In this document: in pieces, positions 1 to 10,689 of the stretch
Numbering within the stretch: position 1 is the first letter of the stretch
Layout of the letters: each line of letters starts with the position of its first letter
Source of the DNA: a virus
UHGV virus genome: UHGV-0361391
Reading direction: 5' to 3' (one strand)
Length of the DNA stretch: 10,689 nucleotides
Notes under the pieces: generated by a model
Database searches by the model: none
The model's input: only the letters and a program-made list of their open reading frames with translations
Told to the model about the DNA's origin: nothing
Translations under genes and position numbers: made by a program

Positions 1-141
1 TCTGATGATATTTTTCCCTGAAGGCTGCCGGGGAGATATTCCCCAGACGAGAGTGACGACGCTGACGATTGTAGAAAATCTCAATGTATTCCCGTATTAC
101 TGAGATGGCTTCATCCCGGTTATTAAAACGATAGTGGCTCA
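1..141 (-). mobile_element. IS3-family insertion sequence fragment: 3' part of transposase orfB (C-terminal region, continues past window start), separated from the rest of the gene by the inserted element
   Basis: Minus-strand translation of 141->1 reads SHYRFNNRDEAISVIREYIEIFYNRQRRHSRLGNISPAAFREKYHQ, matching the conserved C-terminal region of IS3-family (IS150-like) transposases (YIEIFYNRQRRHS...SP..F). It is in frame with the fragment at 10549-10689 once the insert is removed. Confidence 0.8.
138..141. repeat. Left copy of CTCA direct repeat flanking the inserted element (putative target-site duplication; 5 bp CTCAT/CTCAG if one mismatch is allowed)
   Basis: CTCA at 138-141 and again at 10549-10552, immediately outside the inferred element termini. 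In the IS reading frame both copies sit in the same codon phase (cTG AGt / aTG AGc). Confidence 0.5.
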
Positions 142-330
142 TGTAACCAGGTGAATCATTTGATACCGACAAGGGTTTTAGTGAAAGGAGGTGAAATCAC
201 CTGTAAGATGCTGAAATAAAACAGGTGATGTATACTTCGGACGGAAAACTCTTTTTGATACCGACTGCTCAACAAATAGTCAAAAGATCAAAAAACGGCG
301 ACACATTTGATACTGCTAATTTACCCTTAA
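142..330. repeat. Left end (attL-like) with three putative transposase-binding repeats
   Basis: TTTGATACCGAC at 159-170 and 254-265, TTTGATACTGCT at 306-317; these lie 17, 112 and 164 bp from the inferred terminus, resembling the Mu L1/L2/L3 layout. The same motif occurs in inverted orientation at the right end. Confidence 0.6.
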
Positions 331-497
331 AATCTTCTTCAAAACATCTTCAAACTGCCAAAATGCTCACATAATCGATCTAACTATAATCAGTATGATA
401 ATCATCATGAATTACTATTCAATAGCGTGATTATCTTGGGATGAGTCATATGATCTCTATATGTATTTACAGCACCACCTCATGATAGCGATGGCGC

Positions 498-1109
498 TTA
501 ACCAACAACATTTTTCTTTACTGTCACTGCCCCTGATTCCTGGGTGGCGTTATTGCTCGAGTTGTACTTCTCAATAACGCGCAAAATCTCTTTGTCTGTT
601 TCTTCACTTCCCGCCATTCCTATCTTTATTGCATTTTTTAGTACGGGACGTAATGGCAAGGCATCAATGATGCTTTCTACCGCATCCTGGCTGATTGTAG
701 ATGTATTCATTGCTGCCAGCCTGACAAGGTTGTTAGTACCTTCTCGCCTGATGAATGTAAGGATTAATTGCTTCTCTTGGGGGCTTAGAGAGCTAAGCGC
801 CTGATCAATACCCGAACCTGAATCGCAATTTTTTTCGATTTTTCCGCATTCATCTTCGTTCTTGCCTGTGGCCAACCATTCGAGTGAACAATTACAGGCT
901 TTAGCTATTAAGGCCAGTTTATCCAAAGGAGGGAAGTTTTTCCCCTTCCTGTAATTTCTTACTGTGGCTTCAGATAGTCCACAAAGGGTCGCCAGTTCGA
1001 CGTTTGTCATGTTTCCCATAGCCATAGCTAAGCGTTCTGAAAATCGGTTTATTCCTTCCATATCAATAAACCGTTCCGCACTGGATACGGTTTTTTCTGC
1101 CTTATCCAT
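498..1109 (-). CDS. XRE-family helix-turn-helix transcriptional repressor (prophage immunity repressor candidate, Mu c position)
   Basis: 203-aa ORF with an N-terminal HTH_XRE-like segment (NMTNVELATLCGLSEATVRNYRKGKNFPPLDKLALIAKACNCSLEWL). It is transcribed toward the left end, divergent from ner, as Mu c is. RBS AGGGGG lies 4 nt upstream of the ATG. Confidence 0.8.
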   Translation of the reverse strand: MDKAEKTVSSAERFIDMEGINRFSERLAMAMGNMTNVELATLCGLSEATVRNYRKGKNFPPLDKLALIAKACNCSLEWLATGKNEDECGKIEKNCDSGSGIDQALSSLSPQEKQLILTFIRREGTNNLVRLAAMNTSTISQDAVESIIDALPLRPVLKNAIKIGMAGSEETDKEILRVIEKYNSSNNATQESGAVTVKKNVVG

Positions 1110-1265
1110 ATAACCCCCTATAAAACAAAGAAATTATCGACATCGCATTTAATTTCGATATGCTCGCAAAAAACCGTTGATATCGAATTATTTTGCGATT
1201 ATGATTTACCTAAATCGATAACCGGTTTTGATTATCGGTTCAGGTAAACATGAGAGGATCACACA
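1110..1265. promoter_or_regulatory. Divergent early control region between repressor and ner with repeated TATCGA/TCGATA operator-like half-sites
   Basis: Half-sites TATCGA (1135-1140), TCGATA (1155-1160), TATCGA (1182-1187), TCGATA (1215-1220) and TTATCGG (1232-1238) form dyads in the 156-bp intergenic region. The position corresponds to the Mu operator/enhancer region. Confidence 0.45.
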
Positions 1266-1532
1266 ATGAGGGTATCCAGACAAGCATCGAATAATTTGTT
1301 TGTTCGAGAGGGGTGTGACTGGTCTGCTAAAGCGGTATATGCAGCCCTTGAAAACAAAGGCACAGACCTCCCTGAACTGGAAAGGGAGTTAGGATTAAAA
1401 AGCGGATCAATGCGCAATGTGTTTTACCGCCAGTGCCGTAAATACGAAGCCGCCATCGCCGAAAAAATAGGGGTTGAACCTGCTGTAATCTGGCCCAGCA
1501 GATACCAGGTGGACGCCAGAGAAGTGGCTTGA
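1266..1532 (+). CDS. ner: Ner-like DNA-binding protein (Mu Ner / Nlp family)
   Basis: 88-aa ORF containing the conserved VIWPSRYQ motif shared by Mu Ner and E. coli Nlp. It is the first rightward gene after the repressor, with a GAGAGG RBS upstream. Confidence 0.85.
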   Translation: MRVSRQASNNLFVREGCDWSAKAVYAALENKGTDLPELERELGLKSGSMRNVFYRQCRKYEAAIAEKIGVEPAVIWPSRYQVDAREVA

Positions 1533-1542
1533 TGGGGGATGT

Positions 1543-2967
1543 ATGTGGGTAACAGCAAAAGAATGTGTTGGTCTTCCTGATTTACCAATGATGGAACATA
1601 ACATTCGCCATCGACTCACAAAAGCAGCTGCGGGAAATGCAGCCATGTTACGCAAACGTAAGGGGACAAAAGCAATCGAATTTAATATCGATTGTTTGCC
1701 TTCTGGCGCGCAACAAGTATTGCGTGAACGTTATGCCCTTCAACTGATGACGCAAAAAGCTGATGAATCACCGGCTCCGGTGGTGACAAAGGCCAGACGC
1801 TCATCTGCCGTGGTTGATGCGGTGGAGGCATATCGCGGATCACCACAACTGATGCTCGAACGCCTCAATGCCCTGACTGAAAACCAGCGCCAGGTGGCTG
1901 ATGCACGAATCGCGATCGTCAGCGAAGTTCTGAAAGTCGCGCAACAACCTGGTTTCAGCTGTGCGAAGGCTATCCGGTTTATCGTTGACAACCTGGCACG
2001 TTCGCAACTGAACGAGCGCATTGTGGCAATGGTTGAGACGGCGAACGCCAAAAAGGGAAACAGCCGTGCGTTGAGTGAAATCACGCTGAAACGCTGGATT
2101 GCAGCCTTTAACAAGGCGCAGAACGCCGCTGAACGCCTGCTTTTGCTGGCACCTGGTAAGCGCCAGGAAATAAAAGCCGAAGATATTAACTGGCTGCCCG
2201 AATTTCTGGCGCAGTATCGCCAGTCAAACGGCCGACCAATGACCGAGGCTTACGAGGATTTTGTCGCTGAATGGCAGTACCGGCACGCTGATGAGCCTTA
2301 TATGCTCGATATCATGCCGTCTTATGACACCATTCGCCGCGCAATGAAGAAACTGCCGGAAGTGGTGAAACAAAAAGGCCGGGTGACCGGCAGTGAATAC
2401 CGCCAGCTTGAGGGATTCACGCGCCGCGACTGGTCCAGAATGCCGGTGAATTATGTCTGGATTGGTGGCTCCGGGGATGCACAGATGGTCAGCAATATGT
2501 TTGTGGCAAAAACCGGCTCTGTCGGTGCACAGGCGGATTACAGTGGCCCGGCCTGGTATCTGCTCGACTGCTCCCGCGCGGTAAAACCGCTGATTTACCA
2601 GGATCGCCGCAAGGCCGAACTGGTTGCCCAGACAAAAGTCGATGAAGGCCGTGCGTTTACTGATAACGAGTTTGTGTTCGGTGCTTCCGCCCGTCGCAAT
2701 GTGGGCTACGGCTTCTGGCAGATGGCCTACATGATGCAGTCACCGCTGACGCTGGATGCGCTGTGGCACGGCTGGTCAGCCATGCGTGACTTTAAGGCTG
2801 ACGGTGGCCGCAAACTCGGCATCAAACCCACCCATATTGTTGTCCCCACTTCGCTGGAAAAACAGGCGGTGCAGCTGCTGGAGCGCGAGCTGTTCGCGGA
2901 CGGTAACGCCACAGTCTCTAACGAGATGAAGGGCAAGCTGGAGCTGGTTGTCGCGGATTATCTGTAA
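1543..2967 (+). CDS. Chimeric ORF: Mu transposase A-like N-terminal DNA-binding region (about aa 1-310) fused in frame to a Mu gpT-like major head subunit C-terminal region; transposase catalytic core absent
   Basis: The N-terminus MWVTAKECVGLPDLP...GTKAIEFNIDCLP parallels MuA MELWVSPKECANLPGLP...GKAIEYNANSLP (domain I-alpha), and similarity continues to about NYVWIGGSGD (compare MuA QWINGDGY around D269). The remainder (WYLLDCSRAVKPLIYQ...RRNVGYGFWQMAYMM...IVVPTSLEKQAVQLL) does not resemble the MuA core and sits immediately upstream of the DUF1320 gene, where Mu encodes T. Confidence 0.6.
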   Translation: MWVTAKECVGLPDLPMMEHNIRHRLTKAAAGNAAMLRKRKGTKAIEFNIDCLPSGAQQVLRERYALQLMTQKADESPAPVVTKARRSSAVVDAVEAYRGSPQLMLERLNALTENQRQVADARIAIVSEVLKVAQQPGFSCAKAIRFIVDNLARSQLNERIVAMVETANAKKGNSRALSEITLKRWIAAFNKAQNAAERLLLLAPGKRQEIKAEDINWLPEFLAQYRQSNGRPMTEAYEDFVAEWQYRHADEPYMLDIMPSYDTIRRAMKKLPEVVKQKGRVTGSEYRQLEGFTRRDWSRMPVNYVWIGGSGDAQMVSNMFVAKTGSVGAQADYSGPAWYLLDCSRAVKPLIYQDRRKAELVAQTKVDEGRAFTDNEFVFGASARRNVGYGFWQMAYMMQSPLTLDALWHGWSAMRDFKADGGRKLGIKPTHIVVPTSLEKQAVQLLERELFADGNATVSNEMKGKLELVVADYL

Positions 2968-3010
2968 ACGGTGAGCCGGGCTTACGGCCCGGCCCCTGCG
3001 GAGGGCAAAT

Positions 3011-3370
3011 ATGAATGAACATCACACTGTGGCAGCAACAGATGATTCAGGCCTTCAGGTCAGTGGTGACAGTCCTGTCACGGTACTGGCAGAAGTGCGT
3101 TGCAGTCGTACGCATTTTCGTCGTGCGGGGTTCCTGTTCATGCGGGGACGCCAGCAGGTTGACGTCACCCCGGAGCAGCTTGCCCGACTGGAAGCGGAGC
3201 CATGCCTCACTGTACGAATACTACAGACGCCTGGTGATGATGCGGGAGCCGTGGCGGGTGTGGTTCATGCAGAGACCGGTGCAGATTTAGCCGAAGCCGA
3301 AACCGTACAGGATGCTCCCCGGAAAAAGACCGGCAATAACGCCAGACAGGCGAAAAAGGCGCGCGCATGA
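3011..3370 (+). CDS. Hypothetical small Mu-like head-region protein (position of Mu gp35)
   Basis: 119-aa ORF with GGAGGG RBS, translationally coupled (ATGA overlap) to the downstream DUF1320 gene. Assignment is by position only. Confidence 0.5.
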   Translation: MNEHHTVAATDDSGLQVSGDSPVTVLAEVRCSRTHFRRAGFLFMRGRQQVDVTPEQLARLEAEPCLTVRILQTPGDDAGAVAGVVHAETGADLAEAETVQDAPRKKTGNNARQAKKARA

Positions 3371-3786
3371 ATTACGCCACCGAAACCGATATGCGGGCAC
3401 GTTACCGCGAGGATTTGCTCAGGCCATTACTGGCCGTGCCCCGTTCGGATGAACCGGACACGCGCAAGCTGAACCGGGCACTGACGGACGCGTCTGCCCT
3501 TATCGACAGCTATCTGTCTTCCCGTTACACGCTGCCGCTGGCGGTGGTTCCGGCAGTTCTTGTTCAGCACTGCTGCACGATTGCCTTTTATTACCTGTGC
3601 GATCAGCGGGCATCCGATCAGGCGCGTGACCGTTACCGTGAGGCGCTGGCATGGCTGAAAGATGTCATGAACGGTAACGTGCCGGTCGGCGTGGATACCG
3701 ACGGTGCGGCCCCTGAATCCGGGGACTTACCGCAGGTACAGTCTGATGTGGCGGTGTTCGGGCGCAACCAGAAGGGCTTTATATGA
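3367..3786 (+). CDS. DUF1320-family phage protein (Mu gp36-like)
   Basis: 139-aa ORF with the typical DUF1320 pattern (N-terminal M.Y.T..DM.ARY, central LPL..VP..L, C-terminal ..GF) and typical size. Start overlaps the upstream stop. Confidence 0.75.
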   Translation: MNYATETDMRARYREDLLRPLLAVPRSDEPDTRKLNRALTDASALIDSYLSSRYTLPLAVVPAVLVQHCCTIAFYYLCDQRASDQARDRYREALAWLKDVMNGNVPVGVDTDGAAPESGDLPQVQSDVAVFGRNQKGFI

Positions 3787-4347
3787 TTACGGAAACCGAA
3801 CAGGCATATATCACCCGTATTCGTGAGTATTTCGGGAATGAACTGGTGTCTGTTGACACACATCCCGGCGACTGGAGCGACAGCGTGCTGCGCACCATGC
3901 TGATTAACGCCCCGGCTATCCTGGACGGGTAAACAGCTGCTTGCCGAGCGTTTCCCTGACACGTCGCGCCTGCTGCTGGAAGACTGGGAGCGTTATCTCG
4001 GGCTTCCCGAGTGTGATATGGCCGGAGCCACCCTCACGGAGCGACAGCGTTATGCCGGCAATAAATACCGGATGAAGCCCTCGCTGAACCGTGAATTTTA
4101 TATCCGGTTTGCGGCGGAGTTTGGTTATCAGATTGACATTCAGCCCTCACCGGATTCGCAGTGGGTCAGTATTGTCACGATTAACAGTGAAACCGGCTAC
4201 CGGAATATGAATGTGCTGGATGATATTCTCACGCCGCTGCGTATTTATGAAGGCAGTGCGCTGGAATGTATTCTGAACCGTTATAAGCCTGCATGGCAGA
4301 CGTTTATTTACGTTTATGCAAACAGCCATGAAGAGGAGACTATTTAA
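3783..4347 (+). pseudogene. DUF2313-family phage tail protein (Mu gp48-like), disrupted by a +1 frameshift near 3928-3930
   Basis: Frame 0 gives MITETEQ...INAPAILDG then a stop at 3930-3932; frame +1, open from 3904, continues KQLLAERFPDTSRLLLEDWERYLGLPE... to 4347 and carries the conserved DUF2313 FPDT...L..WER.LGLP motif. Removing one G from the GGG run would give a single ~188-aa protein. Confidence 0.65.
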
Positions 4348-5258
4348 TGTTTCATGTTGATAATAATTCCGGCGTGGCGAATATGCCTGCGCTGGCACCG
4401 GCGCAGAGTAATACCACCACCTGGTTTACCGAAGGTGACGGACAAAAAGGTATCAGCTGGATTGGTCAGGACTGGCTGAATATTCTCCAGGCCGAACTGC
4501 TGAATATTCTGGCTGAAGCCAGTATTCAGCCGGATAAGGCGCAGTTAAACCAGCTTACGCTGTCCATTAAAGCCATTATCGCTGCGAATGCCTTTTCCCG
4601 GAAAAATAACCTGAAAGAAATTGCTGATGCCGGTGCGGAGGCCCAGCGTCTGGCCCGTGGTTATCTTGGTCTGGGGACGCTTGCCACAAAAAACAGTCTT
4701 GGTCCCGGTGACGTTAATGCCCTGGCGAAGGATCAGAATCTCGCCGACCTGGAGAATAAGGGAACCGCCCGTAATAATCTGGATGTTTACAGCAAAAGCG
4801 AAGGTGATAACCGTTACCTGCGCAGGGAGCAGAACGGCGCAGACATTCCGGATAAAGGGGCTTTTATCGATAACGTCGGTTTACGGGAAACGGTGAATAA
4901 GGCGGCGAATGCTCTGCCATCGGACGGCACCGCCGTTGCCGCGAATAAACTCTCCACCCCAAGAAATATTAATGGCGTTCCTTTTGACGGGACGCAGGAC
5001 ATATACATTACCTCCGGTATGACTGAAGCTACTGCTGATAACAAATACGTTAGCAACGTTCAGCTTGGTGCCCAGAGTTACCATTCACCCGGAGGTAATG
5101 AAATGTCCTGGAGTTATGGTGCACCTTCTGGTTGTATGCTTTCAGGTATTAACGTGCAGGATACCGGGAAAAGTTCAGCCGATAATATCGGAGGCGTTTA
5201 TTACCGTCCGGTGCAGATATATATCGGTAATGCCTGGCGCACAGTTTCATCCGTCTGA
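4347..5258 (+). CDS. Phage tail fibre protein (Mu S / Stf-like)
   Basis: 303-aa ORF with the conserved tail-fibre N-terminus MFHVDNNSGVANMP...WLN.LQAE shared by Mu S and E. coli Stf proteins. GAGGAG RBS; TAATG overlap with the upstream DUF2313 gene. Confidence 0.85.
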   Translation: MFHVDNNSGVANMPALAPAQSNTTTWFTEGDGQKGISWIGQDWLNILQAELLNILAEASIQPDKAQLNQLTLSIKAIIAANAFSRKNNLKEIADAGAEAQRLARGYLGLGTLATKNSLGPGDVNALAKDQNLADLENKGTARNNLDVYSKSEGDNRYLRREQNGADIPDKGAFIDNVGLRETVNKAANALPSDGTAVAANKLSTPRNINGVPFDGTQDIYITSGMTEATADNKYVSNVQLGAQSYHSPGGNEMSWSYGAPSGCMLSGINVQDTGKSSADNIGGVYYRPVQIYIGNAWRTVSSV

Positions 5259-5266
5259 TTAAAGGA

Positions 5267-5289
5267 AAAGGGTGCGATAAGCACCCTTT
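5267..5289. terminator. Perfect hairpin between convergent tail fibre and tail-fibre assembly genes (likely bidirectional terminator)
   Basis: AAAGGGTGC-gataa-GCACCCTTT: 9-bp perfect stem with a 5-nt loop, flanked by A/T-rich sequence on both sides, between the stop at 5256-5258 and the minus-strand stop at 5293-5295. Confidence 0.55.
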
Positions 5290-5292
5290 ATG

Positions 5293-5865
5293 TTATTCAG
5301 GCTTCTCCGGCCATTTAATGGCGTCAAATTCAGCTTTGTTTTTAATCGCTGGTAGTTCCATTTTTTTCACCTGACTGATGTATTTCATCCATCGTGTAAG
5401 CGCAGCTCTGTTTTCATCACTAATCGTGCCCAGCTGTAACTCAGTTCTCCAGTCATTAATCTTTTCATATGCCTGATTAAGATATGACTGGCGCAGTGCT
5501 TCCGCTTTTTTGGTATAGTTAACCGGGAGTTGTGAGATGACACCATTATCAAACTTCCAGTTACCTGAAATATCAGTACCTTCAGGTAATTCGTCTGTCT
5601 CAACAACGGAAAAACCCGCAGGATACAGCGCCGAAGCATCCTGTGATATTGAGCAGATAACACCGCTGTCAGGGGTTATGCAAAGTTTATATTTTTTGGT
5701 GAATAATGGCAGGGACTCATAGAAATCCTTACCATCTTCACTTTGAAAATACTGTACATCATTACCAAAGGGTTTTTGTTCCGGGTAATATCGTTTAACA
5801 TTAATCAGTTGCATAAACATCACCATGTAAATCAATGATAAAAACAGGAATAATAATATCGCCAT
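5293..5865 (-). CDS. Tail fibre assembly protein (Tfa / Mu U-like); true start probably the internal ATG near 5814
   Basis: Conserved Tfa features: DASALYPAGFSVVE, ISDENRAALTRWMKYISQV, C-terminal WPEKPE. The first 17 residues of the longest ORF are hydrophobic and likely not translated; MQLINVKRYY looks like the real N-terminus. Confidence 0.85.
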   Translation of the reverse strand: MAILLFLFLSLIYMVMFMQLINVKRYYPEQKPFGNDVQYFQSEDGKDFYESLPLFTKKYKLCITPDSGVICSISQDASALYPAGFSVVETDELPEGTDISGNWKFDNGVISQLPVNYTKKAEALRQSYLNQAYEKINDWRTELQLGTISDENRAALTRWMKYISQVKKMELPAIKNKAEFDAIKWPEKPE

Positions 5866-6118
5866 ATACAGGCAAGGGGTTTCTGAAATAACGCATATTT
5901 TCAGATGCTGACCGCAGCGTCATGAATCGTTAAATCAATTATAAGCCGGTAATATGCGGTTATCGTATTGGCCTGTCCATCCTTTGTCGTTATGTTCCTG
6001 CCTAACCGGCTCCGTCACAAAAAGTACCGTGATGCTTTTTTTGAATTTCCGCAAAACACATATTTATCAGCGGTTGTTATTCTGACTCTGTTTAATTCAG
6101 AAACAGGCAGAAAAGACG

Positions 6119-8173
6119 ATGTCAGACTCCAAGTGGAAAATGCTCTCCGCCATGCCCGGAGAGTTTTCAGTCAAGGTTGCCGGTGGCACGGTGGCATTTA
6201 TTGAAAGCCCTTTCCGCCCTTCGGGTAATAAAGGGGGGATCACCTTCGCAGACTGCGTGATCCGCTTCAGCACGAAAGAGCCATTATGGGTAATGCCGGT
6301 ATCCGGTAATCCCAGTGCAGAAATCACCAGTTCAGGCGTGACTGGCATCATTCCAATCACATCTGACGTGGCCGGAACGCTCACGCCCTCCGACTGGAAT
6401 GCACCGGATAACGCCGGGCCTTCCGGTAGCACGAATGGCAGCAGTTCAGAGCCGGAATATTACTTTGTTGTCATTCTCGCGGGTCAGTCAAATGGCATGG
6501 CCTACGGCGAGGGGCTGCCGTTACCGGATTCGTTTGACCGCCCGGACCCACGCATTAAGCAACTGGCACGCCGCAGTACGGTAACGCCCAACGGTACGTC
6601 GTGTACATACAACGACATCATTCCGGCAGACCACTGCCTGCATGATGTTCAGGATATGAGCGGGATAAACCACCCGAAAGCTGATCTGGCAAAAGGCCAG
6701 TACGGGACTGTCGGTCAGGGGTTGCATATTGCCAAAAAACTGCTTCCCTATATCCCACAGAATGCGGGGATACTTCTGGTGCCCTGTTGTCGTGGCGGGT
6801 CAGCATTCACCACTGGAGCCGACGGCTCATTCAGTGAGGCCAGCGGTGCTTCCGCTGATTCTTCACGCTGGGGGGCCGGTAAACCTCTGTATCAGGACCT
6901 GGTAAGCCGCACCAAAGTCGCGCTGGCGAAAAACCCGAAAAACAAACTTCTGGCTGTGGTCTGGATGCAGGGAGAGGCAGACCTTGCCTCAGGAAGCCAG
7001 CAGCATAATAGTTTATTCACGGCCATGGTTCAGCAGTTCAGAACTGACCTGGCTCCGCTTGCTGCGCAGTGCGTGAGTGGAAATGCCACCACGGTGCCGT
7101 GGATTTGCGGTGATACCACGTATTACTGGAAAAACGCTGGCACCGATAAATATGAGGCAGTATACGGTGGCTACAAAGGCAAGGAAGCACAGAAAATTTT
7201 CTTTGTACCGTTCCTGACGGATGAGAATGGACAGAGCACGCCAACGAATGCTCCGGCGGAAGACCCGGATATTGTGGCTGTCGGGTATTACGGTGCAGCA
7301 TCCCGAACCCAGGGCAGTTTTGTTTCGACACAGCGTGACAGCCATTTCAGCTCATGGGCACGCAGGGGCGTCATTTCAGACCGTCTGGCCTCAGCTATTA
7401 TGCTCCATGCAGGGCGCACGGCTGAACTGATGCGCGGGCAGACCGTGACACCACCGGATGAGAAGCCGTCACCTGATACACCATCAAAACCGTCCACGCC
7501 ACCCGCAGACACCACGACGATGAGTACGCTATTTGCTTACCGGGCATCTGAGTCTGAAGGACGGTTGACACCACAGGGTTGGGCTGCCGGAGGTGGCAAG
7601 GCTCAAATCGTGGATGATGCCGGAGCCAGCGGGGGTAAGGCAATGAAACTGACCAAGGAAACAGGAAGAGCCCCCTGGTACCTTGAGCATGATGCTGGTA
7701 ATGGTGCGGACCTGCTGGGTAAAGGTGGTCTTGTCAGTTGTCGTTTTAAACTCGATGGCGCGCTTACGGCTAATCAGTACGCACTGGCGCTGTACTGGCC
7801 GGTTTCTGCCCTGCCGCAAGGGGTTACTCTGGAAGGAAATGCCGGTCATAACCTGCTGGCATCGTTCTACGTACAGAGCGATGCCACAGACCTTAACGTG
7901 ATGTATCACAAAGGAAACACGGCGCAGAACACGAAGCTGGGGTCATTCGGCGCATTTAATAACGAATGGCATACGCTGGGCTTCCGTTTTGCCGGTAACA
8001 ACAGTATTGAGGTGACGCCGGTCATTGATGGTAAGGACGGGACACCATTCATGCTGTCGCAGTCTCCGGTCGGCACGTTTACGGCAGACAAGTTGCGCGT
8101 GACCGATATCACTAAAAATGCGACTTACCCGGTACTGATTGACAGTATCGTGGTGGAAGTGAATAACGCGTAA
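6119..8173 (+). CDS. SASA-family carbohydrate esterase (sialate O-acetylesterase-like, NanS-p-like) with Pro/Thr/Ser-rich linker and C-terminal lectin-like beta-sandwich domain
   Basis: 684-aa ORF. The central region carries the SASA/SGNH-type GQSNG motif (FVVILAGQSNGMAYGEG) and a later VVWMQGEAD block. A linker PPDEKPSPDTPSKPSTPPADTTT precedes a ~190-aa C-terminal domain with lectin/LamG-like character. The gene lies downstream of the tail fibre module, as prophage nanS-p genes do. Confidence 0.75.
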   Translation: MSDSKWKMLSAMPGEFSVKVAGGTVAFIESPFRPSGNKGGITFADCVIRFSTKEPLWVMPVSGNPSAEITSSGVTGIIPITSDVAGTLTPSDWNAPDNAGPSGSTNGSSSEPEYYFVVILAGQSNGMAYGEGLPLPDSFDRPDPRIKQLARRSTVTPNGTSCTYNDIIPADHCLHDVQDMSGINHPKADLAKGQYGTVGQGLHIAKKLLPYIPQNAGILLVPCCRGGSAFTTGADGSFSEASGASADSSRWGAGKPLYQDLVSRTKVALAKNPKNKLLAVVWMQGEADLASGSQQHNSLFTAMVQQFRTDLAPLAAQCVSGNATTVPWICGDTTYYWKNAGTDKYEAVYGGYKGKEAQKIFFVPFLTDENGQSTPTNAPAEDPDIVAVGYYGAASRTQGSFVSTQRDSHFSSWARRGVISDRLASAIMLHAGRTAELMRGQTVTPPDEKPSPDTPSKPSTPPADTTTMSTLFAYRASESEGRLTPQGWAAGGGKAQIVDDAGASGGKAMKLTKETGRAPWYLEHDAGNGADLLGKGGLVSCRFKLDGALTANQYALALYWPVSALPQGVTLEGNAGHNLLASFYVQSDATDLNVMYHKGNTAQNTKLGSFGAFNNEWHTLGFRFAGNNSIEVTPVIDGKDGTPFMLSQSPVGTFTADKLRVTDITKNATYPVLIDSIVVEVNNA

Positions 8174-8180
8174 GCAGGAT

Positions 8181-8223
8181 AAAAAAATCCCGCCGGTCAA
8201 AGAGCCATTTGTTGACTGGCGGG
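8181..8223 (-). terminator. Hairpin with adjacent A7/T7 tract, oriented as an intrinsic terminator for leftward transcription
   Basis: CCCGCCGGTCAA (8189-8200) pairs with TTGACTGGCGGG (8212-8223), 12 bp with one G-U pair. AAAAAAA at 8181-8187 gives a U-tract only on the minus-strand transcript. Confidence 0.4.
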
Positions 8224-8338
8224 TGATATTCCAAACCCATTAAGGAAAGCTACAACCTCTGACAAAGAAGACCATTATGTACGCGGTTACTTTTTAGCTG
8301 AAAACTGTTTCTGTAGTCAATATCAAAGGTAAGGTTAT

Positions 8339-8521
8339 ATGACATTTGTTCATACGATGCTGCTTTATTTCTGCACTGTGGTCAGTGCGTTATATCTGGT
8401 GAGCGGTGGTTATAAGGCCATCAGAAATTATGTTCGCCGCAAAATTGATGACGCAGCAGCTGAAAAGCTCAGTAAAACAGCGCAGGCAACTCCGCTCCCA
8501 AAAGACCCGACCCAGCCCTGA
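8339..8521 (+). CDS. Hypothetical small membrane protein (single predicted TM helix)
   Basis: 60-aa ORF with an AAGG RBS; hydrophobic N-terminal segment FVHTMLLYFCTVVSALYLVSGGY followed by a charged tail. Lies in an AT-rich islet. Confidence 0.4.
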   Translation: MTFVHTMLLYFCTVVSALYLVSGGYKAIRNYVRRKIDDAAAEKLSKTAQATPLPKDPTQP

Positions 8522-8556
8522 TTGCAGGGCTGTATTCCCACATAAGGAGGATATAC

Positions 8557-8811
8557 ATGCCAGAGATTAAAGGCACCGTCACTGAAGTCCTGGTAAAACA
8601 GGCACTGTATTCCGGTGAAGTAAATAAATTACTGAAAGCGCAGGTCCGCAAGGATTTTGAGGCACAAATCGACACTTACGTTGATGAAGTGCTGGCAAAA
8701 CTTATTGGGCCAGCAGTTGCGGCCAGTGATGCTGATAATGAGCCGAAAACCGACGCGCAGCCAGAGCAACCAGACCCGGCTCAGCCCGGAACTGACAGTA
8801 CCATGATGTAA
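8557..8811 (+). CDS. Hypothetical protein (helical N-terminus, acidic proline-rich C-terminus)
   Basis: 84-aa ORF preceded by a strong AAGGAGG RBS with 7-nt spacing, followed by a hairpin (AAACCGG...CCGGTTT, 8818-8843). Confidence 0.5.
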   Translation: MPEIKGTVTEVLVKQALYSGEVNKLLKAQVRKDFEAQIDTYVDEVLAKLIGPAVAASDADNEPKTDAQPEQPDPAQPGTDSTMM

Positions 8812-8978
8812 CAATACAAACCGGTGGTGTCCTCTGCCGGTTTGACACTAATGAAAACATCTTTGCCGCTATCCAGCCATATGTAATCGCTGGATAGTAT
8901 TTCGTATTCAGAAATATAGCTGCTTATGGAGCAGTCAATCCTGCTTCCCCATCCGGGCAGGCAAATGAACCGGTATCA

Positions 8979-9272
8979 TTAGTCCGATTCACGCTTTTGT
9001 AGAATCGTTCCCAGAATGCTATACAGCTCATTAGCCTGTTGCTCCATCATTGAGACGGAGGCTATACGGTGCAAAGTGATTTCAGGAGGTGGCACACCTC
9101 CATCTTCTTGCTGTGGAGGAAAAACATAAGATTTAATAAAAAAGTTGAAGCATATGAACTCTCCCGCACTCGAACTGTATTTGCAGGCATCTGAATAATC
9201 GGAAAAATAATCATTATAGATTTCCGCATTTTCAATCATTTTTCGATTTCTCGTCGTTACATGATTGTCCAT
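8979..9272 (-). CDS. Hypothetical protein, unknown function
   Basis: 97-aa minus-strand ORF with an AGAGG RBS 5 nt upstream of the ATG; AT-rich codon usage differs from the surrounding phage genes; divergent from com-mom. Confidence 0.45.
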   Translation of the reverse strand: MDNHVTTRNRKMIENAEIYNDYFSDYSDACKYSSSAGEFICFNFFIKSYVFPPQQEDGGVPPPEITLHRIASVSMMEQQANELYSILGTILQKRESD

Positions 9273-9460
9273 AGCAGCCTCTTACGCTGGCAATTAACCA
9301 ATTGACTTCTATAAATTAGTTGATTTGTTTGCTTTGCGGTATTCAAATGTACAATCATTCAGCACTTATGCGTTACAGCACCGTTTAAAATTAGTGATCA
9401 AACTCATAAATTTTCGCTAATGACATTTCGTGTTATTTGTTGTATCAATTAAATAAATCA

Positions 9461-9485
9461 AATCGATCGTTTTTGTCGATCGATT
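9461..9485. promoter_or_regulatory. Perfect palindrome with two GATC (Dam) sites upstream of com-mom; candidate methylation-sensitive regulatory site
   Basis: AATCGATCG-tttttgt-CGATCGATT (9-bp arms, 7-bp spacer) with GATC at 9465-9468 and 9478-9481, in the AT-rich intergenic region about 45-70 bp upstream of the com start. Phage Mu mom is controlled through clustered GATC sites upstream of its promoter. Confidence 0.45.
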
Positions 9486-9528
9486 GAGTGATAAAGATAT
9501 CAACAACAAAGCAGGAGGTTATGCGGCC

Positions 9529-9729
9529 ATGTATCGAAACATACGGTGCCGACATTGTAACAAGCTACTGGCACGAGCCAGCTTCAGTTATCTGGAAGTC
9601 AAATGTCCGCGCTGTAAAACCCTCAATCAAATCACATCTCAGAGCGCCACAGAGCACCCCACATACACAAGGAAATCCTGTCGTGGGGAACAGAAAGCAA
9701 GTTACATCCCGTATCATCAGCACGCCTGA
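9529..9729 (+). CDS. com: Com-like zinc-finger translational regulator of mom
   Basis: [34 protein letters not shown]... parallels Mu Com MKSIRCKNCNKLLFKADSFDHIEIRCPRCK with the same C-x2-C...C-x2-C spacing. AGGAGG lies 10 nt upstream of this ATG. It overlaps the 5' end of the mom-like ORF as in Mu. Confidence 0.75.
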
Positions 9730-10420
9730 ACTTATTCACTATAACGACAATATCGTCGGTTATGGCTCCCGTGAGTTACGGGTTGAGACAATAAGTTGCT
9801 GGCTGGCCCGGCTGGTCGTCGTCAATAAACATTACAGCCATCGTTTCGTAAATAATTCCTACCTTCATCTGGGCATATTTTCAGAACGGGAGCTGGTTGG
9901 CGTAATGCAATGGGGTTATGCCCTTAATCCAAACAATGGTGCACGCGTCGTAACTGGCACGCAGAACCGCGAATATATGGAGCTTAACCGGTTATGGCTG
10001 CATGACTGTATGCCGAGAAACTCCGAATCAAGGGCAATCAGTTACGCGCTCAAACTAATCAGACAACTTTATCCGCAGGTGCAGTGGGTTCAGTCGTTTG
10101 CAGATGAGCGTTGTGGCTGTCTTGGTGTCGTGTACCAGGCAAGCAATTTTGATTATGTAGGCAGTCATGAAACAACATTCTATGAACTTGATGGCGAGTG
10201 GTATCACGAGATTTGCAAGAATGCAATCAAACGAGGAGGACAGCGAGGTGAACATCTGCGGGCTAATATCGACAGAGCCAGTGTTCATAAATTCCGTCAG
10301 TTTCGTTACATCCGGTTTCTGGACAAGAGAGCCAGAAAACGCCTTAACACAAAGCTATTCAAAGTCCAGCCTTACCCAAAACCACAAACAGTTAAAACTG
10401 GTTTGAAAGAGAGTGAATGA
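9683..10420 (+). CDS. mom: Mom-like DNA modification protein; start uncertain (candidate GTG at 9683, alternative ATG at 9905)
   Basis: Long ORF in the +1 frame relative to com and overlapping its 3' end, at the extreme right end of the element. Size from the GTG (245 aa) is close to Mu Mom (231 aa). AAGGA lies 9 nt upstream of the GTG. Confidence 0.6.
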
Positions 10421-10548
10421 ACGCTTAAAAACTCATTCTAAAACTCAAAAGAAAAGCGCCGATTTAGTATCAAATAAGTTGCGTATCGGCGTTTTTCAGC
10501 GGTATCAAATGAAATGCAAATCGGTATCAAAAAAATCGCCGCGCTATA
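10421..10548. repeat. Right end (attR-like) with three putative transposase-binding repeats in inverted orientation
   Basis: GTATCAAA cores at 10467-10474, 10502-10509 and 10524-10531 (reverse complements TTTGATACTAA, TTTGATACCGCT, TTTGATACCGAT). The innermost-to-terminus spacing (17 bp) equals that at the left end, and the sites are closely packed as Mu R1-R3 are. Confidence 0.6.
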
Positions 10549-10552
10549 CTCA
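10549..10552. repeat. Right copy of CTCA direct repeat flanking the inserted element (putative target-site duplication)
   Basis: Identical to 138-141 and in the same codon phase of the interrupted IS transposase. Confidence 0.5.
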
Positions 10553-10689
10553 GGCTCTCATTTTTCAGCGTTCCCCAGAAGCTTTCCATCGGAGCGTTGT
10601 CGTAACAGTTACCTTTACGCGACATTGATGTTTTCAGACCAAACTGCTCCTGTATGACCCGGTAATCGTATGCGCAGTACTGTGAACCT
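10549..10689 (-). mobile_element. IS3-family insertion sequence fragment: internal part of transposase orfB (DDE domain region), truncated by the insertion; gene continues past window end
   Basis: Minus-strand translation of 10688->10549 reads GSQYCAYDYRVIQEQFGLKTSMSRKGNCYDNAPMESFWGTLKNESLS, the conserved IS3-family catalytic-domain block (SMSRKGNC.DNAPMESFFGTLK). The frame then runs into element sequence and stops. Confidence 0.8.

What the first reader, a model, noticed from the sequence alone, without database searches (positions are those of the whole stretch)
9440..10420. Com-mom DNA-modification module is retained, with a GATC-bearing palindrome upstream
The Com-like zinc-finger ORF overlaps the start of a ~245-aa downstream ORF, as Mu com overlaps mom, and the pair sits next to the right end as in Mu. 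Upstream is a perfect 9-bp-arm palindrome with two Dam sites 13 bp apart, which recalls the Dam-methylation and OxyR control of the Mu mom promoter. I see no recognisable C/Mor-type activator in the element, although one of the small unassigned ORFs could supply it. If expressed, Mom-type adenine modification would protect against restriction; why a non-autonomous remnant keeps this module is unexplained.
Basis: partly seen in the sequence, partly recalled or inferred. Interest (0 to 1): 0.65.

Follow-up and report, generated by a model that had tools for sequence, protein, structure and literature searches.

The report
Known Mu-type com-mom operon, intact
This is the already annotated com-mom DNA-modification operon of an Sp18-type Mu-like prophage, sitting beside the right end of a recently deleted 10.4-kb remnant, with a Dam/OxyR-type palindrome upstream; it is ordinary except that its control region is shorter than phage Mu's.

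Summary
The genes overlap by 47 nt, and the Mu-like right end lies 128 bp after mom. Both proteins are 100% identical to RefSeq-annotated proteins, and the module occurs in 233 complete E. coli genomes, so it is already known.

The palindrome AATCGATCG-N7-CGATCGATT (9461-9485) corresponds to Mu GATC sites II and III, with the same 13-bp spacing. It matches the agn43 OxyR/Dam switch at 21 of 25 positions. Covariation supports the Com-target hairpin and the stem that hides the mom start codon.

Two things differ from Mu. GATC site I and the Mu C box are missing, and the GATC pair lies 28 bp closer to com.

No C/Mor activator is present in the window. Retention needs no special explanation: the right 6.6 kb is 99.9% identical to an intact-size prophage, so the deletions are recent, and mom adjoins the right end. 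The promoter, OxyR binding and Mom activity remain untested.

The parts
9434..9528 (+). Conserved cis-regulatory block upstream of com; the promoter is presumed to lie inside it but was not located
   Evidence: Most of the 233 E. coli genomes with the module begin to match at window 9434, and sequence upstream of that differs between sublineages. No sigma-70-like promoter at 9 of 12 matches is found on the + strand.
9461..9485 (.). Perfect palindrome AATCGATCG-N7-CGATCGATT carrying two Dam sites (GATC at 9465-9468 and 9478-9481); predicted OxyR dimer half-site
   Evidence: Sequence. It is homologous to Mu GATC II/III with the same 13-bp spacing. The core is invariant in 13 aligned relatives. 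The motif ATCGATCG-N7-CGATCGAT is present in 27 lineage loci and in the agn43 regulatory region.
9486..9501 (+). Hypervariable stretch between the palindrome and the conserved ATCAACAACAAAGCAGGAGG; it occupies the place of Mu's C box but is not alignable to it
   Evidence: In alignment A2, six different versions occur among relatives that are otherwise 95-100% identical.
9513..9518 (+). Shine-Dalgarno AGGAGG for com
   Evidence: Read directly; conserved in A2.
9529..9729 (+). com, a 66-aa zinc-ribbon translational activator
   Evidence: Pfam PF10122; 45% identical to Mu Com with the four Cys aligned; 100% identical to the RefSeq-annotated Com in strain AST46.
9644..9657 (+). Predicted Com-target hairpin: stem 9644-9647 pairs with 9654-9657, loop CACAGA, with one C.A mismatch at 9645/9656
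   Evidence: All 4 stem pairs show compensatory changes across 11 distinct com-mom loci; 0 of 500 shuffles reach the covariation score.
9657..9688 (+). Translation-inhibition stem: CCCCAC 9657-9662 pairs with GUGGGG 9683-9688, enclosing the mom Shine-Dalgarno AGGA (9670-9673) and sequestering the GUG start
   Evidence: Five pairs are invariant and the sixth covaries (C-G, U-A, U-G), with 100% of cells paired. It is the minimum-free-energy structure.
9683..10420 (+). mom, a 245-aa Mom-family GNAT-fold enzyme that modifies adenine N6 in DNA
   Evidence: Pfam PF25680 at 1.6e-77; 78% identical to Mu Mom; PDB 8bv8 at 2.4e-123; W48, H58, Y59, R111, S124, D149, R151, Y159 and W181 all conserved (PMC13219725).
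10421..10548 (+). Right end of the Mu-like element, with three GTATCAA (TTGATAC-type) terminal repeats at 10467, 10502 and 10524
   Evidence: Matches in unrelated insertion sites end at 10548.
10549..10689 (.). Flanking IS600 transposase sequence, the target into which the element inserted; not part of the module
   Evidence: 100% match to 'IS3-like element IS600 family transposase'. The left flank 1-141 belongs to the same IS, and the 4-bp repeat CTCA appears at both junctions.

Best explanation
The region is the com-mom late operon of an Sp18-type (E. coli/Shigella) Mu-like transposable prophage. It sits beside the right end of a 10.4-kb internally deleted copy (142-10548) inserted in IS600.

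Shown by sequence: both genes are intact and identical to annotated proteins, and all residues known to be essential in Mu Mom are kept.

Inferred mechanism:
(1) Transcription starts from a weak promoter, not located, inside the conserved block 9434-9528.
(2) The palindrome 9461-9485 is an OxyR dimer half-site with a Dam site in each arm. OxyR binds it when the two GATCs are unmethylated and represses transcription; Dam methylation blocks OxyR. This is how the Mu mom, agn43 and P22 gtr control regions work.
(3) com is translated first. Com binds the small hairpin 9644-9657. That hairpin shares base 9657 with the stem CCCCAC/GUGGGG, which hides the mom Shine-Dalgarno and GUG 9683. Com binding opens the stem and allows mom translation.
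(4) Mom transfers glycine from Gly-tRNA(Gly) to N6 of adenine in double-stranded DNA, which rearranges to carbamoylmethyl-adenine and blocks many restriction enzymes.

The late activator C was lost with the internal deletions. The module is therefore probably silent in this remnant unless a co-resident Mu-like prophage supplies C, or unless this lineage's promoter does not need C. Retention reflects recent deletion and the module's position next to the right end, not demonstrated selection.
For: Identity of the genes: Pfam Com and Mom hits well above their cut-offs. BLASTP to Mu gives Com 45% and Mom 78% identity. The solved Mom structure 8bv8 matches at 2.4e-123. All nine functionally tested residues are conserved (PMC13219725). 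RefSeq annotates genes of the same lengths and overlap as Com and Mom family proteins in relatives, and the window's proteins are 100% identical to those in AST46.

Dam/OxyR element: Mu has GATC I, then 18 bp to II, then 13 bp to III. The window has II and III at the same 13-bp spacing, in the same flanking context ATCAATTAAAT...AATCGATCG...GATCGATT. A GATC pair 13 bp apart is seen upstream of com in most of the enterobacterial-type com-mom loci examined. The core is invariant while the adjacent bases vary. It matches the agn43 site at 21 of 25 positions. In P22 gtr, GATC pairs 13 bp apart lie inside single OxyR half-sites and methylation abolishes OxyR binding (PMC2909390).

Translational switch: the hairpin has 4 of 4 pairs with compensatory changes. 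The inhibitory stem is 100% paired, with a covarying sixth pair that uses the same base as the hairpin's closing pair.

No activator: no Mor/C by Pfam or tblastn. In the intact O157 relative the C orthologue (39% identical to Mu C) sits just upstream of the lysozyme gene, a region deleted here.

Recency: window 3917-10553 is 99.9% identical to a prophage of about 38 kb in JE86-ST02/ST05.
Against: The control region is not Mu's. GATC I is missing. The Mu C box (ATTATgccccAATAAcc), the T6 run and the TAAGAT -10 cannot be aligned. GATC III is 48 bp from the com ATG, against 76 bp in Mu. No sigma-70-like promoter is detectable, so where and how transcription starts is unknown.

Only one OxyR half-site is clear. 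By my own hand count against the consensus ATAGxTxxxAxCTAT, the candidate second half-site upstream (9444-9458) matches about 6 of 10 specified positions.

The window's Com hairpin has a C.A mismatch. Its folding energy is not exceptional, with z = -1.5.

No expression, binding or activity data exist for this lineage.
Confidence: 0.85

Rival explanations
1. The palindrome is the binding site of the phage's own late activator (the C orthologue) rather than, or as well as, OxyR. In this lineage it would have replaced the Mu-type C box and would sit over the -35 region.
For: The Mu C box is absent, and only about 27 bp separate the palindrome from the com Shine-Dalgarno. Any promoter must therefore overlap the palindrome. 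Mu C binds a dyad-symmetric site as a dimer (established knowledge; PMC4461284).
Against: The intact relative's lys and I promoter regions share a different box, CCGCAAArCCyGCC, followed 16 nt later by TAyGCT. They contain no CGATCG-N5-9-CGATCG element, which occurs only upstream of com. The palindrome is nearly identical to the host agn43 OxyR site, which has no link to C.
Confidence: 0.1
2. The palindrome is an intrinsic transcription terminator or insulator hairpin, unrelated to methylation control.
For: The terminator scan flags it on the minus strand: a 9-bp stem, a 7-nt loop and the T-rich tail TGATTTATTT.
Against: On the minus strand it would terminate only transcription antisense to mom and com coming from the element's end, and no gene lies there. 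On the plus strand there is no T tract. What is conserved across lineages is the two GATCs and their spacing, not the stem or the tail; the Mu arm is AGATCGATT with a different spacer.
Confidence: 0.03
3. The module is a silent relic that no longer functions. It is intact only because the deletions are recent, and it will decay.
For: There is no C activator in the element. There is no recognisable promoter. The element is 99.9% identical to an intact prophage, so purifying selection on the remnant cannot be inferred. The exact A'-T' deletion junction is found in no complete E. coli genome.
Against: This rival concerns expression rather than identity and is compatible with the best explanation. 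The ORFs, the catalytic residues and the RNA switch are all intact. C could be supplied in trans, since some genomes carry several copies of the module (1 to 4 places per genome).
Confidence: 0.35

Closest known systems
com-mom operon of Escherichia phage Mu (Mup54/Mup55), with Pmom controlled by Dam, OxyR and C, and mom translation activated by Com
   Same: The gene order is the same, with com overlapping the mom start (47 nt here; 50 nt in Mu if mom is counted from the aligned GTG at L001 1158). Mom starts at GUG within a CCCAC/GUGGG stem, preceded by a small hairpin. The module lies about 115-130 bp from the right end. A GATC pair 13 bp apart sits in an AATCGATC...GATCGATT dyad upstream. 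Mom is 78% and Com 45% identical.
   Different: Only two of Mu's three GATC sites are present. Mu's C box, T6 run and TAAGAT -10 are absent. The distance from GATC III to the com ATG is 48 bp rather than 76 bp. Mom has a 12-residue longer C-terminus and 2 extra N-terminal residues. Between the tail-fibre genes and com lie an esterase gene, DUF1378, DUF826 and a minus-strand ORF, where Mu has gin.
com-mom of the Mu-like prophage Sp18 of E. coli O157:H7 Sakai and its relatives (RefSeq 'Com family' and 'Mom family adenine methylcarbamoylation protein' or 'protein mom')
   Same: It belongs to the same lineage. The DNA is 95% identical from 9434 to the right end, with the same palindrome and the same gene coordinates. 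Some strains (AST46, JE86) are 99.9-100% identical. The literature already notes that Sp18 encodes Mom and its regulator at the corresponding position (PMC3299994).
   Different: The window's copy lies in an internally deleted element without A (C-terminal part), B, C, lysis, head and most tail genes. Sequence upstream of 9434 differs from the O157 sublineage.
agn43 (flu) OxyR/Dam phase-variation switch of E. coli K-12 (cryptic prophage CP4-44)
   Same: The agn43 site is TATCGATCG-tttatat-CGATCGATA and the window's is AATCGATCG-tttttgt-CGATCGATT. They are identical at 21 of 25 positions, with the same arm length, a 7-nt T-rich spacer and two GATCs 13 bp apart.
   Different: agn43 has a third GATC 19 bp upstream, and its sites lie at and downstream of the start of the annotated IsrC RNA (L108 218), which I take as the transcription start. 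It controls an autotransporter and has no phage activator. OxyR binding to the window's site is not tested.
P22 / Salmonella gtr OxyR/Dam switch
   Same: GATC pairs 13 bp apart are each contained in one OxyR dimer half-site. The promoter-proximal pair overlaps the promoter, with GATC4 at -33, comparable to the window's short distance from the GATC pair to com (PMC2909390).
   Different: gtr has three half-sites and four GATCs, giving alternative OxyR positions and phase variation. Only one clear half-site is visible here.

Membership tests
Mom family (Pfam PF25680; GNAT-fold tRNA(Gly)-dependent DNA adenine-N6 aminoacyltransferase) | Full-length match to the family profile above the curated cut-off | tested here: met
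   260.2 bits against a cut-off of 27.1, covering profile positions 1-202 of 202. PDB 8bv8 'Methylcarbamoylase mom' matches at E 2.4e-123.
Mom family (Pfam PF25680; GNAT-fold tRNA(Gly)-dependent DNA adenine-N6 aminoacyltransferase) | Residues shown essential or important in Mu Mom: R111, S124, D149, R151, plus W48, H58, Y59, Y159 and W181 (241-aa numbering) | tested here: met
   All nine are identical in the window protein, at R103, S116, D141, R143, W40, H50, Y51, Y151 and W173. The residue list comes from PMC13219725.
Mom family (Pfam PF25680; GNAT-fold tRNA(Gly)-dependent DNA adenine-N6 aminoacyltransferase) | HTH-like insertion (Mu residues ~175-209) required for activity | tested here: met
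   The region aligns without gaps and with high identity (query 160-200). The requirement is stated in PMC13219725.
Mom family (Pfam PF25680; GNAT-fold tRNA(Gly)-dependent DNA adenine-N6 aminoacyltransferase) | Formation of 6-NcmdA in DNA and protection from restriction | not testable with these tools
   This needs expression followed by nucleoside LC-MS and a restriction challenge.
Com family (Pfam PF10122, Mu translational activator) | Profile match above the cut-off and a four-cysteine zinc site (Mu C6, C9, C26, C29) | tested here: met
   48.2 bits against a cut-off of 22.9. Window C7, C10, C26 and C29 align with the Mu cysteines.
Com family (Pfam PF10122, Mu translational activator) | The gene overlaps the 5' end of the target gene, whose start is buried in a stem preceded by a Com-target hairpin | tested here: met
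   The overlap is 47 nt. The hairpin shows 4 of 4 covarying pairs, and the inhibitory stem is 100% paired across 11 distinct loci. The window's hairpin has one C.A mismatch.
Com family (Pfam PF10122, Mu translational activator) | Specific binding of Com to mom mRNA and Com-dependent mom translation | not testable with these tools
   This needs a gel shift or toeprint and mom'-lacZ translational fusions with and without com.
Mu-type Pmom control region (Dam + OxyR + C) | Three upstream GATC sites (I, 18 bp, II, 13 bp, III) | tested here: not met
   Only II and III are present. The position of site I reads TTGTTGT instead of CGATCGA. The nearest other GATC, at 9396, lies outside the conserved block.
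Mu-type Pmom control region (Dam + OxyR + C) | A GATC pair within an OxyR-type dyad (ATxG-N7-CxAT) whose methylation would block OxyR | tested here: inconclusive
   The geometry and sequence fit: 21 of 25 positions match the agn43 site, and the spacing is the same as in the gtr half-sites. OxyR binding itself and a second half-site are not established.
Mu-type Pmom control region (Dam + OxyR + C) | A C-binding site between GATC III and a poor -35/-10 pair with a 19-bp spacer | tested here: not met
   The Mu C box is not alignable and the interval is 28 bp shorter. The lineage's own late-promoter box, CCGCAAArCCyGCC, is also absent upstream of com.
Mu-type Pmom control region (Dam + OxyR + C) | A C (Mor-family) late activator encoded by the same element | tested here: not met
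   There is no Mor/C hit by Pfam on the ORFs or by tblastn with the lineage's C orthologue. The gene lies in the deleted interval.
Mu-like transposable prophage (right-end context) | The module is adjacent to a terminal region with repeated transposase-binding motifs mirrored at the left end, and the flanks show a target duplication | tested here: met
   TTGATAC occurs three times at the left end (160, 255, 307) and GTATCAA three times at the right end (10467, 10502, 10524). The ends are 142 and 10548, and CTCA appears at both junctions. The same ends are seen at two other insertion sites.

The most novel reading that the evidence does not exclude
In the Sp18-type lineage the Mu C box has been lost. 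The OxyR/Dam palindrome now sits directly on the core promoter, as in agn43 and gtr. If so, com-mom would no longer be a strictly C-dependent late function. It would be an OxyR/Dam-gated, possibly phase-variable, operon expressed from the prophage or from activator-less remnants. A subpopulation of cells would then carry Mom-modified chromosomal and plasmid DNA. This would also give a selective reason for independent deletion remnants, such as this window and the AST46 ypdB element, to keep the module.
Probability: 0.07. Interest if true: 0.6.

Novelty: already known. Interest (0 to 1): 0.15.

Why it matters
It matters little beyond correct annotation. The window carries an intact anti-restriction DNA-modification module that is already annotated in hundreds of E. 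coli genomes and has been noted in the literature for Sp18. Two modest points could interest specialists. First, the Sp18-type lineage has a compacted mom control region: two GATCs rather than three, no Mu-type C box, and a palindrome nearly identical to the agn43 OxyR/Dam switch. This raises the question of whether mom expression in these prophages still depends on the late activator. Second, comparative data give covariation support for the Com hairpin and inhibitory-stem switch, including one base that covaries with partners in both structures.

Tried and rejected
(1) The 310-aa ORF 9488-10420, which spans com in the +1 frame, was considered as a long Mom isoform. I rejected it because the extension is not conserved. 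O157 relatives have a stop 27 codons upstream of the GTG, and in Mu the frame opens only 10 codons upstream.

(2) I searched for a late-activator box upstream of com. The box shared by the lys and I promoter regions of the intact relative (CCGCAAArCCyGCC, then 16 nt, then TAyGCT) has no convincing match near com. The nearest is a 3-mismatch match at 9326-9339 on the minus strand, at chance level.

(3) The consensus promoter scan of 9200-10689 found nothing on the + strand upstream of com. Hand-picked candidates, such as TTGTCG at 9473 followed 19 bp later by TATCAA at 9498, are not conserved in the O157 sublineage and were not adopted.

(4) The terminator reading of the palindrome was rejected for the reasons given under the rival explanations.

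(5) NCBIfam gave no hit for Mom or for the minus-strand ORF 8979-9272.

(6) A scan of IMG/VR for ATCGATCG-N7-CGATCGAT returned 29 com-mom loci and 29 others. By my rough estimate, most of the others are GC-rich and consistent with the chance expectation for 16 specified bases. About eight share a third GATC nearby but have no recognisable com, and two quick ORF listings gave no clear downstream gene. I did not pursue this further.

(7) I tried to find the window's exact deleted element in complete E. coli genomes. The A'-T' junction is not present in any of them, so the source strain and any co-resident helper prophage could not be identified.

(8) Hattman & Sun 1997 (PMC147061) could not be read. 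Details of the OxyR footprint on Mu Pmom therefore rest on general knowledge and on secondary citations.
Full report
**Observation.**
The window holds an internally deleted Mu-like element. Its left end is at 142 (TGTAACC...) and its right end at 10548 (...GCGCTATA). Both ends carry three TTGATAC-type repeats in inverted orientation. The flanks are IS600 transposase sequence with CTCA at both junctions.

It is 66 aa and hits Pfam Zn_ribbon_Com at E 7.5e-13. It is 45% identical to Mu Com, and its four cysteines align with the Mu zinc ligands.

The mechanical downstream ORF is 9488-10420 (310 aa), but the gene begins at GTG 9683 (245 aa). That GTG aligns with the codon that would give a 231-aa Mu Mom. 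An AGGA lies 9 nt upstream. RefSeq annotates a 738-nt mom overlapping a 201-nt com, the same lengths and overlap as here, in relatives. The long upstream extension is not conserved.

The palindrome AATCGATCG (9461-9469), a 7-nt spacer and CGATCGATT (9477-9485) is perfect. It carries GATC at 9465 and 9478.

**Is it more than chance?**
Within the window alone, the case is weak. Seven perfect inverted repeats with 9-bp arms occur against about 1 expected, and a GATC-N9-GATC pair appears in 33 of 200 shuffles.

The weight comes from comparison with relatives. The motif ATCGATCG-N7-CGATCGAT lies at the same place upstream of com in all 27 loci of this lineage that I fetched. The GATC pair and its spacing stay invariant in relatives whose Com is only 59-70% identical. 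Meanwhile the 13-16 bp just downstream are the most variable part of the region among near-identical relatives.

**What it is.**
The Mom ORF matches Pfam PF25680 at 1.6e-77. It is 78% identical to Mu Mom and matches the solved Mom structure 8bv8 at 2.4e-123.

A 2026 study showed that Mu Mom is a GNAT-fold enzyme. It transfers glycine from Gly-tRNA(Gly) to N6 of adenine in double-stranded DNA, and the product then rearranges to 6-NcmdA. R111, S124, D149 and R151 are essential or near-essential, and W48, H58, Y59, Y159 and W181 are important (PMC13219725). All nine residues are identical in the window protein.

The window's Com and Mom are 100% identical to the proteins RefSeq annotates in strain AST46. 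The DNA differs at one base across 9300-10548. The module is found in 233 of 5426 complete E. coli genomes, mostly at 95% identity starting from window position 9434. These include O157:H7 prophages of the Sp18 type. The literature already states that Sp18 encodes Mom and its regulator at the corresponding position (PMC3299994). This is therefore a known module.

**The upstream element.**
Mu's control region reads cGATCgaatcaattaaatcGATCggtaatacaGATCgattatgccccaataacc. It has three GATC sites: I, then II 18 bp later, then III 13 bp later. The C box follows.

The window reads gtatcaattaaataaatcaaatcGATCgtttttgtcGATCgattgagtg. Sites II and III, their 13-bp spacing and the flanking AATCGATC...GATCGATT dyad are conserved, but site I is not. 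Most of the enterobacterial-type com-mom loci I examined also show a GATC pair 13 bp apart, usually with a third site upstream.

The dyad has the form ATCG-N7-CGAT, which fits the OxyR dimer half-site ATAG-N7-CTAT. In P22 gtr, GATC pairs 13 bp apart each lie within one OxyR half-site, and methylation abolishes OxyR binding (PMC2909390).

The agn43 OxyR/Dam switch of E. coli K-12 is TATCGATCG-tttatat-CGATCGATA. It is identical to the window's palindrome at 21 of 25 positions, closer than Mu's own site at 19 of 25. The Dam/OxyR reading is therefore well supported by homology, though not by experiment.

**How the region differs from Mu.**
- The interval from GATC III to the com ATG is 48 bp, against 76 bp in Mu.
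- Mu's C box, T6 run and TAAGAT -10 cannot be aligned.
- No consensus promoter is found.
- In the intact O157 relative, the lys and I upstream regions share CCGCAAArCCyGCC followed 16 nt later by TAyGCT. This box is absent upstream of com.
- Intermediate relatives (L052-L054) have a good TATACT or TATAGT hexamer 7-9 bp after GATC III. This suggests the GATC pair overlaps the -35 and spacer region in these lineages. The hexamer is degenerate in the window's lineage.

Where transcription starts, and whether it needs C, remains open.

**Translational control.**
I aligned 11 distinct com-mom junctions (A1).
- A 4-bp hairpin (window 9644-9647 with 9654-9657) has compensatory changes at all four pairs. 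None of 500 shuffles reaches the observed covariation score, and the signal disappears when the partners are slid.
- The stem CCCAC/GUGGG (9658-9662 with 9683-9687) is invariant.
- Its sixth pair, 9657 with 9688, covaries as C-G, U-A or U-G.

Base 9657 thus covaries with partners in both structures. That fits a switch in which Com binding to the hairpin competes with the stem that buries the mom Shine-Dalgarno and GUG. This is the mechanism described for Mu (established knowledge; cited in PMC3378877 and PMC3299994).

The window's hairpin has one C.A mismatch. One close relative (L031) has U-A at that pair. Folding energy alone is unremarkable, with z about -1.5.

**Activator and retention.**
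No Mor/C protein is encoded in the window. In the intact relative, the C orthologue is 39% identical to Mu C and 27% to Mor. It lies immediately upstream of the lysozyme gene, inside the interval deleted here.

The window is a mosaic of three retained blocks:
- the left end through the N-terminal part of the A gene (142 to about 2462);
- the C-terminal part of T through gp37' (about 2463-3930);
- gp48' through the right end (about 3917-10548).

The first junction makes an in-frame A'-T' fusion ORF. It is found in no complete E. coli genome. The right block is 99.9% identical to a prophage of about 38 kb in JE86-ST02/ST05. The deletions are therefore recent. The survival of com-mom, 128 bp from the right end, needs no selective explanation.

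Without C, the module is probably silent unless C comes from a co-resident prophage or the promoter does not need C. Some genomes carry several copies of the module, with 1 to 4 places per genome.

**Verdict.**
The feature is already known and its interest is low.

The residual question is whether the compacted, agn43-like control region makes mom independent of C, or phase-variable, in this lineage. My evidence does not exclude this. I rate it unlikely, at about 7%.

Noticed in passing
window 1543-2967 (+), junction near 2462/2463: This is an in-frame fusion ORF of 474 aa. It joins the N-terminal DNA-binding part of the Mu-type transposase A (Pfam HTH_Tnp_Mu_1) to the C-terminal half of the major head protein T (Mu-like_gpT), which marks a deletion of the intervening region (an intact relative spans about 38 kb). 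The junction is absent from all 5426 complete E. coli genomes searched.
   Followed up: partly
window 1-141 and 10549-10689: The element is inserted in an IS600 transposase gene. Only 4 bp (CTCA) are repeated at the junctions. Two other insertions of the same phage type also show a 4-bp repeat (ACTG, CCTG), with an ambiguous fifth base, whereas Mu makes 5-bp duplications.
   Followed up: partly
L002 15001-25481 (E. coli AST46, in ypdB): This is a second, independently deleted remnant of the same phage type, about 10.5 kb long. Its internal junctions differ (A' fused to a tail-sheath fragment), but it also keeps both ends, the repressor, ner, the esterase gene and an identical com-mom. Because these remnants were found by searching with the right end, the shared retention is biased by how they were found.
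   Followed up: no
window 6119-8811 (+): A 684-aa protein with SASA (sialate O-acetylesterase) and DUF6645 domains is followed by DUF1378 and DUF826 genes. In L006 a truncated DUF6645 gene followed by a holin lies in the lambdoid prophage next to the Mu-like right end, so this cassette also occurs outside Mu-like elements. Here it lies between the tail-fibre region and com.
   Followed up: no
window 5866-6118: Relatives L002 and L006 carry a gin-type recombinase gene between the tail-fibre region and the esterase gene. The window, and by contiguous 99.9% match the JE86 prophage, has only about 250 bp there. The tail-fibre assembly gene (5293-5865) lies on the minus strand.
   Followed up: no
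window 9486-9501 and alignment A2 columns 58-76: The stretch immediately after the palindrome has six different versions among relatives that are otherwise 95-100% identical, and one relative (L044) has a 6-bp insertion. It is the most variable part of the com upstream region and sits where Mu has its C box.
   Followed up: partly
alignment A1 column 27 (window 9657): One base covaries with two different partners. One is the 5' strand of the Com hairpin (column 14: G-C, A-U or G-U). The other is the base after the GUGGG of the mom start (column 58: C-G, U-A or U-G). This is consistent with mutually exclusive pairings in the Com switch.
   Followed up: yes
L007 7400-7471 (minus strand) and L006 770-815: The regions upstream of the lysozyme gene and the protease (I) gene of the intact O157 Mu-like prophage share CCGCAAA(G/A)CC(T/C)GCC followed 16 nt later by TA(C/T)GCT. 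This is a candidate late-promoter signature for the C orthologue. It resembles part of the Mu region just upstream of the lys gene, CCCGCACCTGCC.
   Followed up: partly
L115, L128, L134, L150, L153, L155, L157, L163 (IMG/VR contigs): The same palindrome core (ATCGATCG-N7-CGATCGAT, spacer GTTTCAA or similar) recurs with a further GATC 11-13 nt beyond one arm (15-17 bp start to start) in phage contigs where tblastn finds no com. The downstream genes were not identified.
   Followed up: partly
whole window: GATC is under-represented, with 18 sites against 41.6 expected from base composition. There are none in the last 1.2 kb (com, mom and the right end). Three of the 18 sites cluster at 9396-9481.
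   Followed up: no
window 8979-9272 (-): This 97-aa ORF diverges from com and has no Pfam or NCBIfam match. The O157 sublineage has a different minus-strand gene at this position, and homology between the sublineages resumes at 9434.
   Followed up: no
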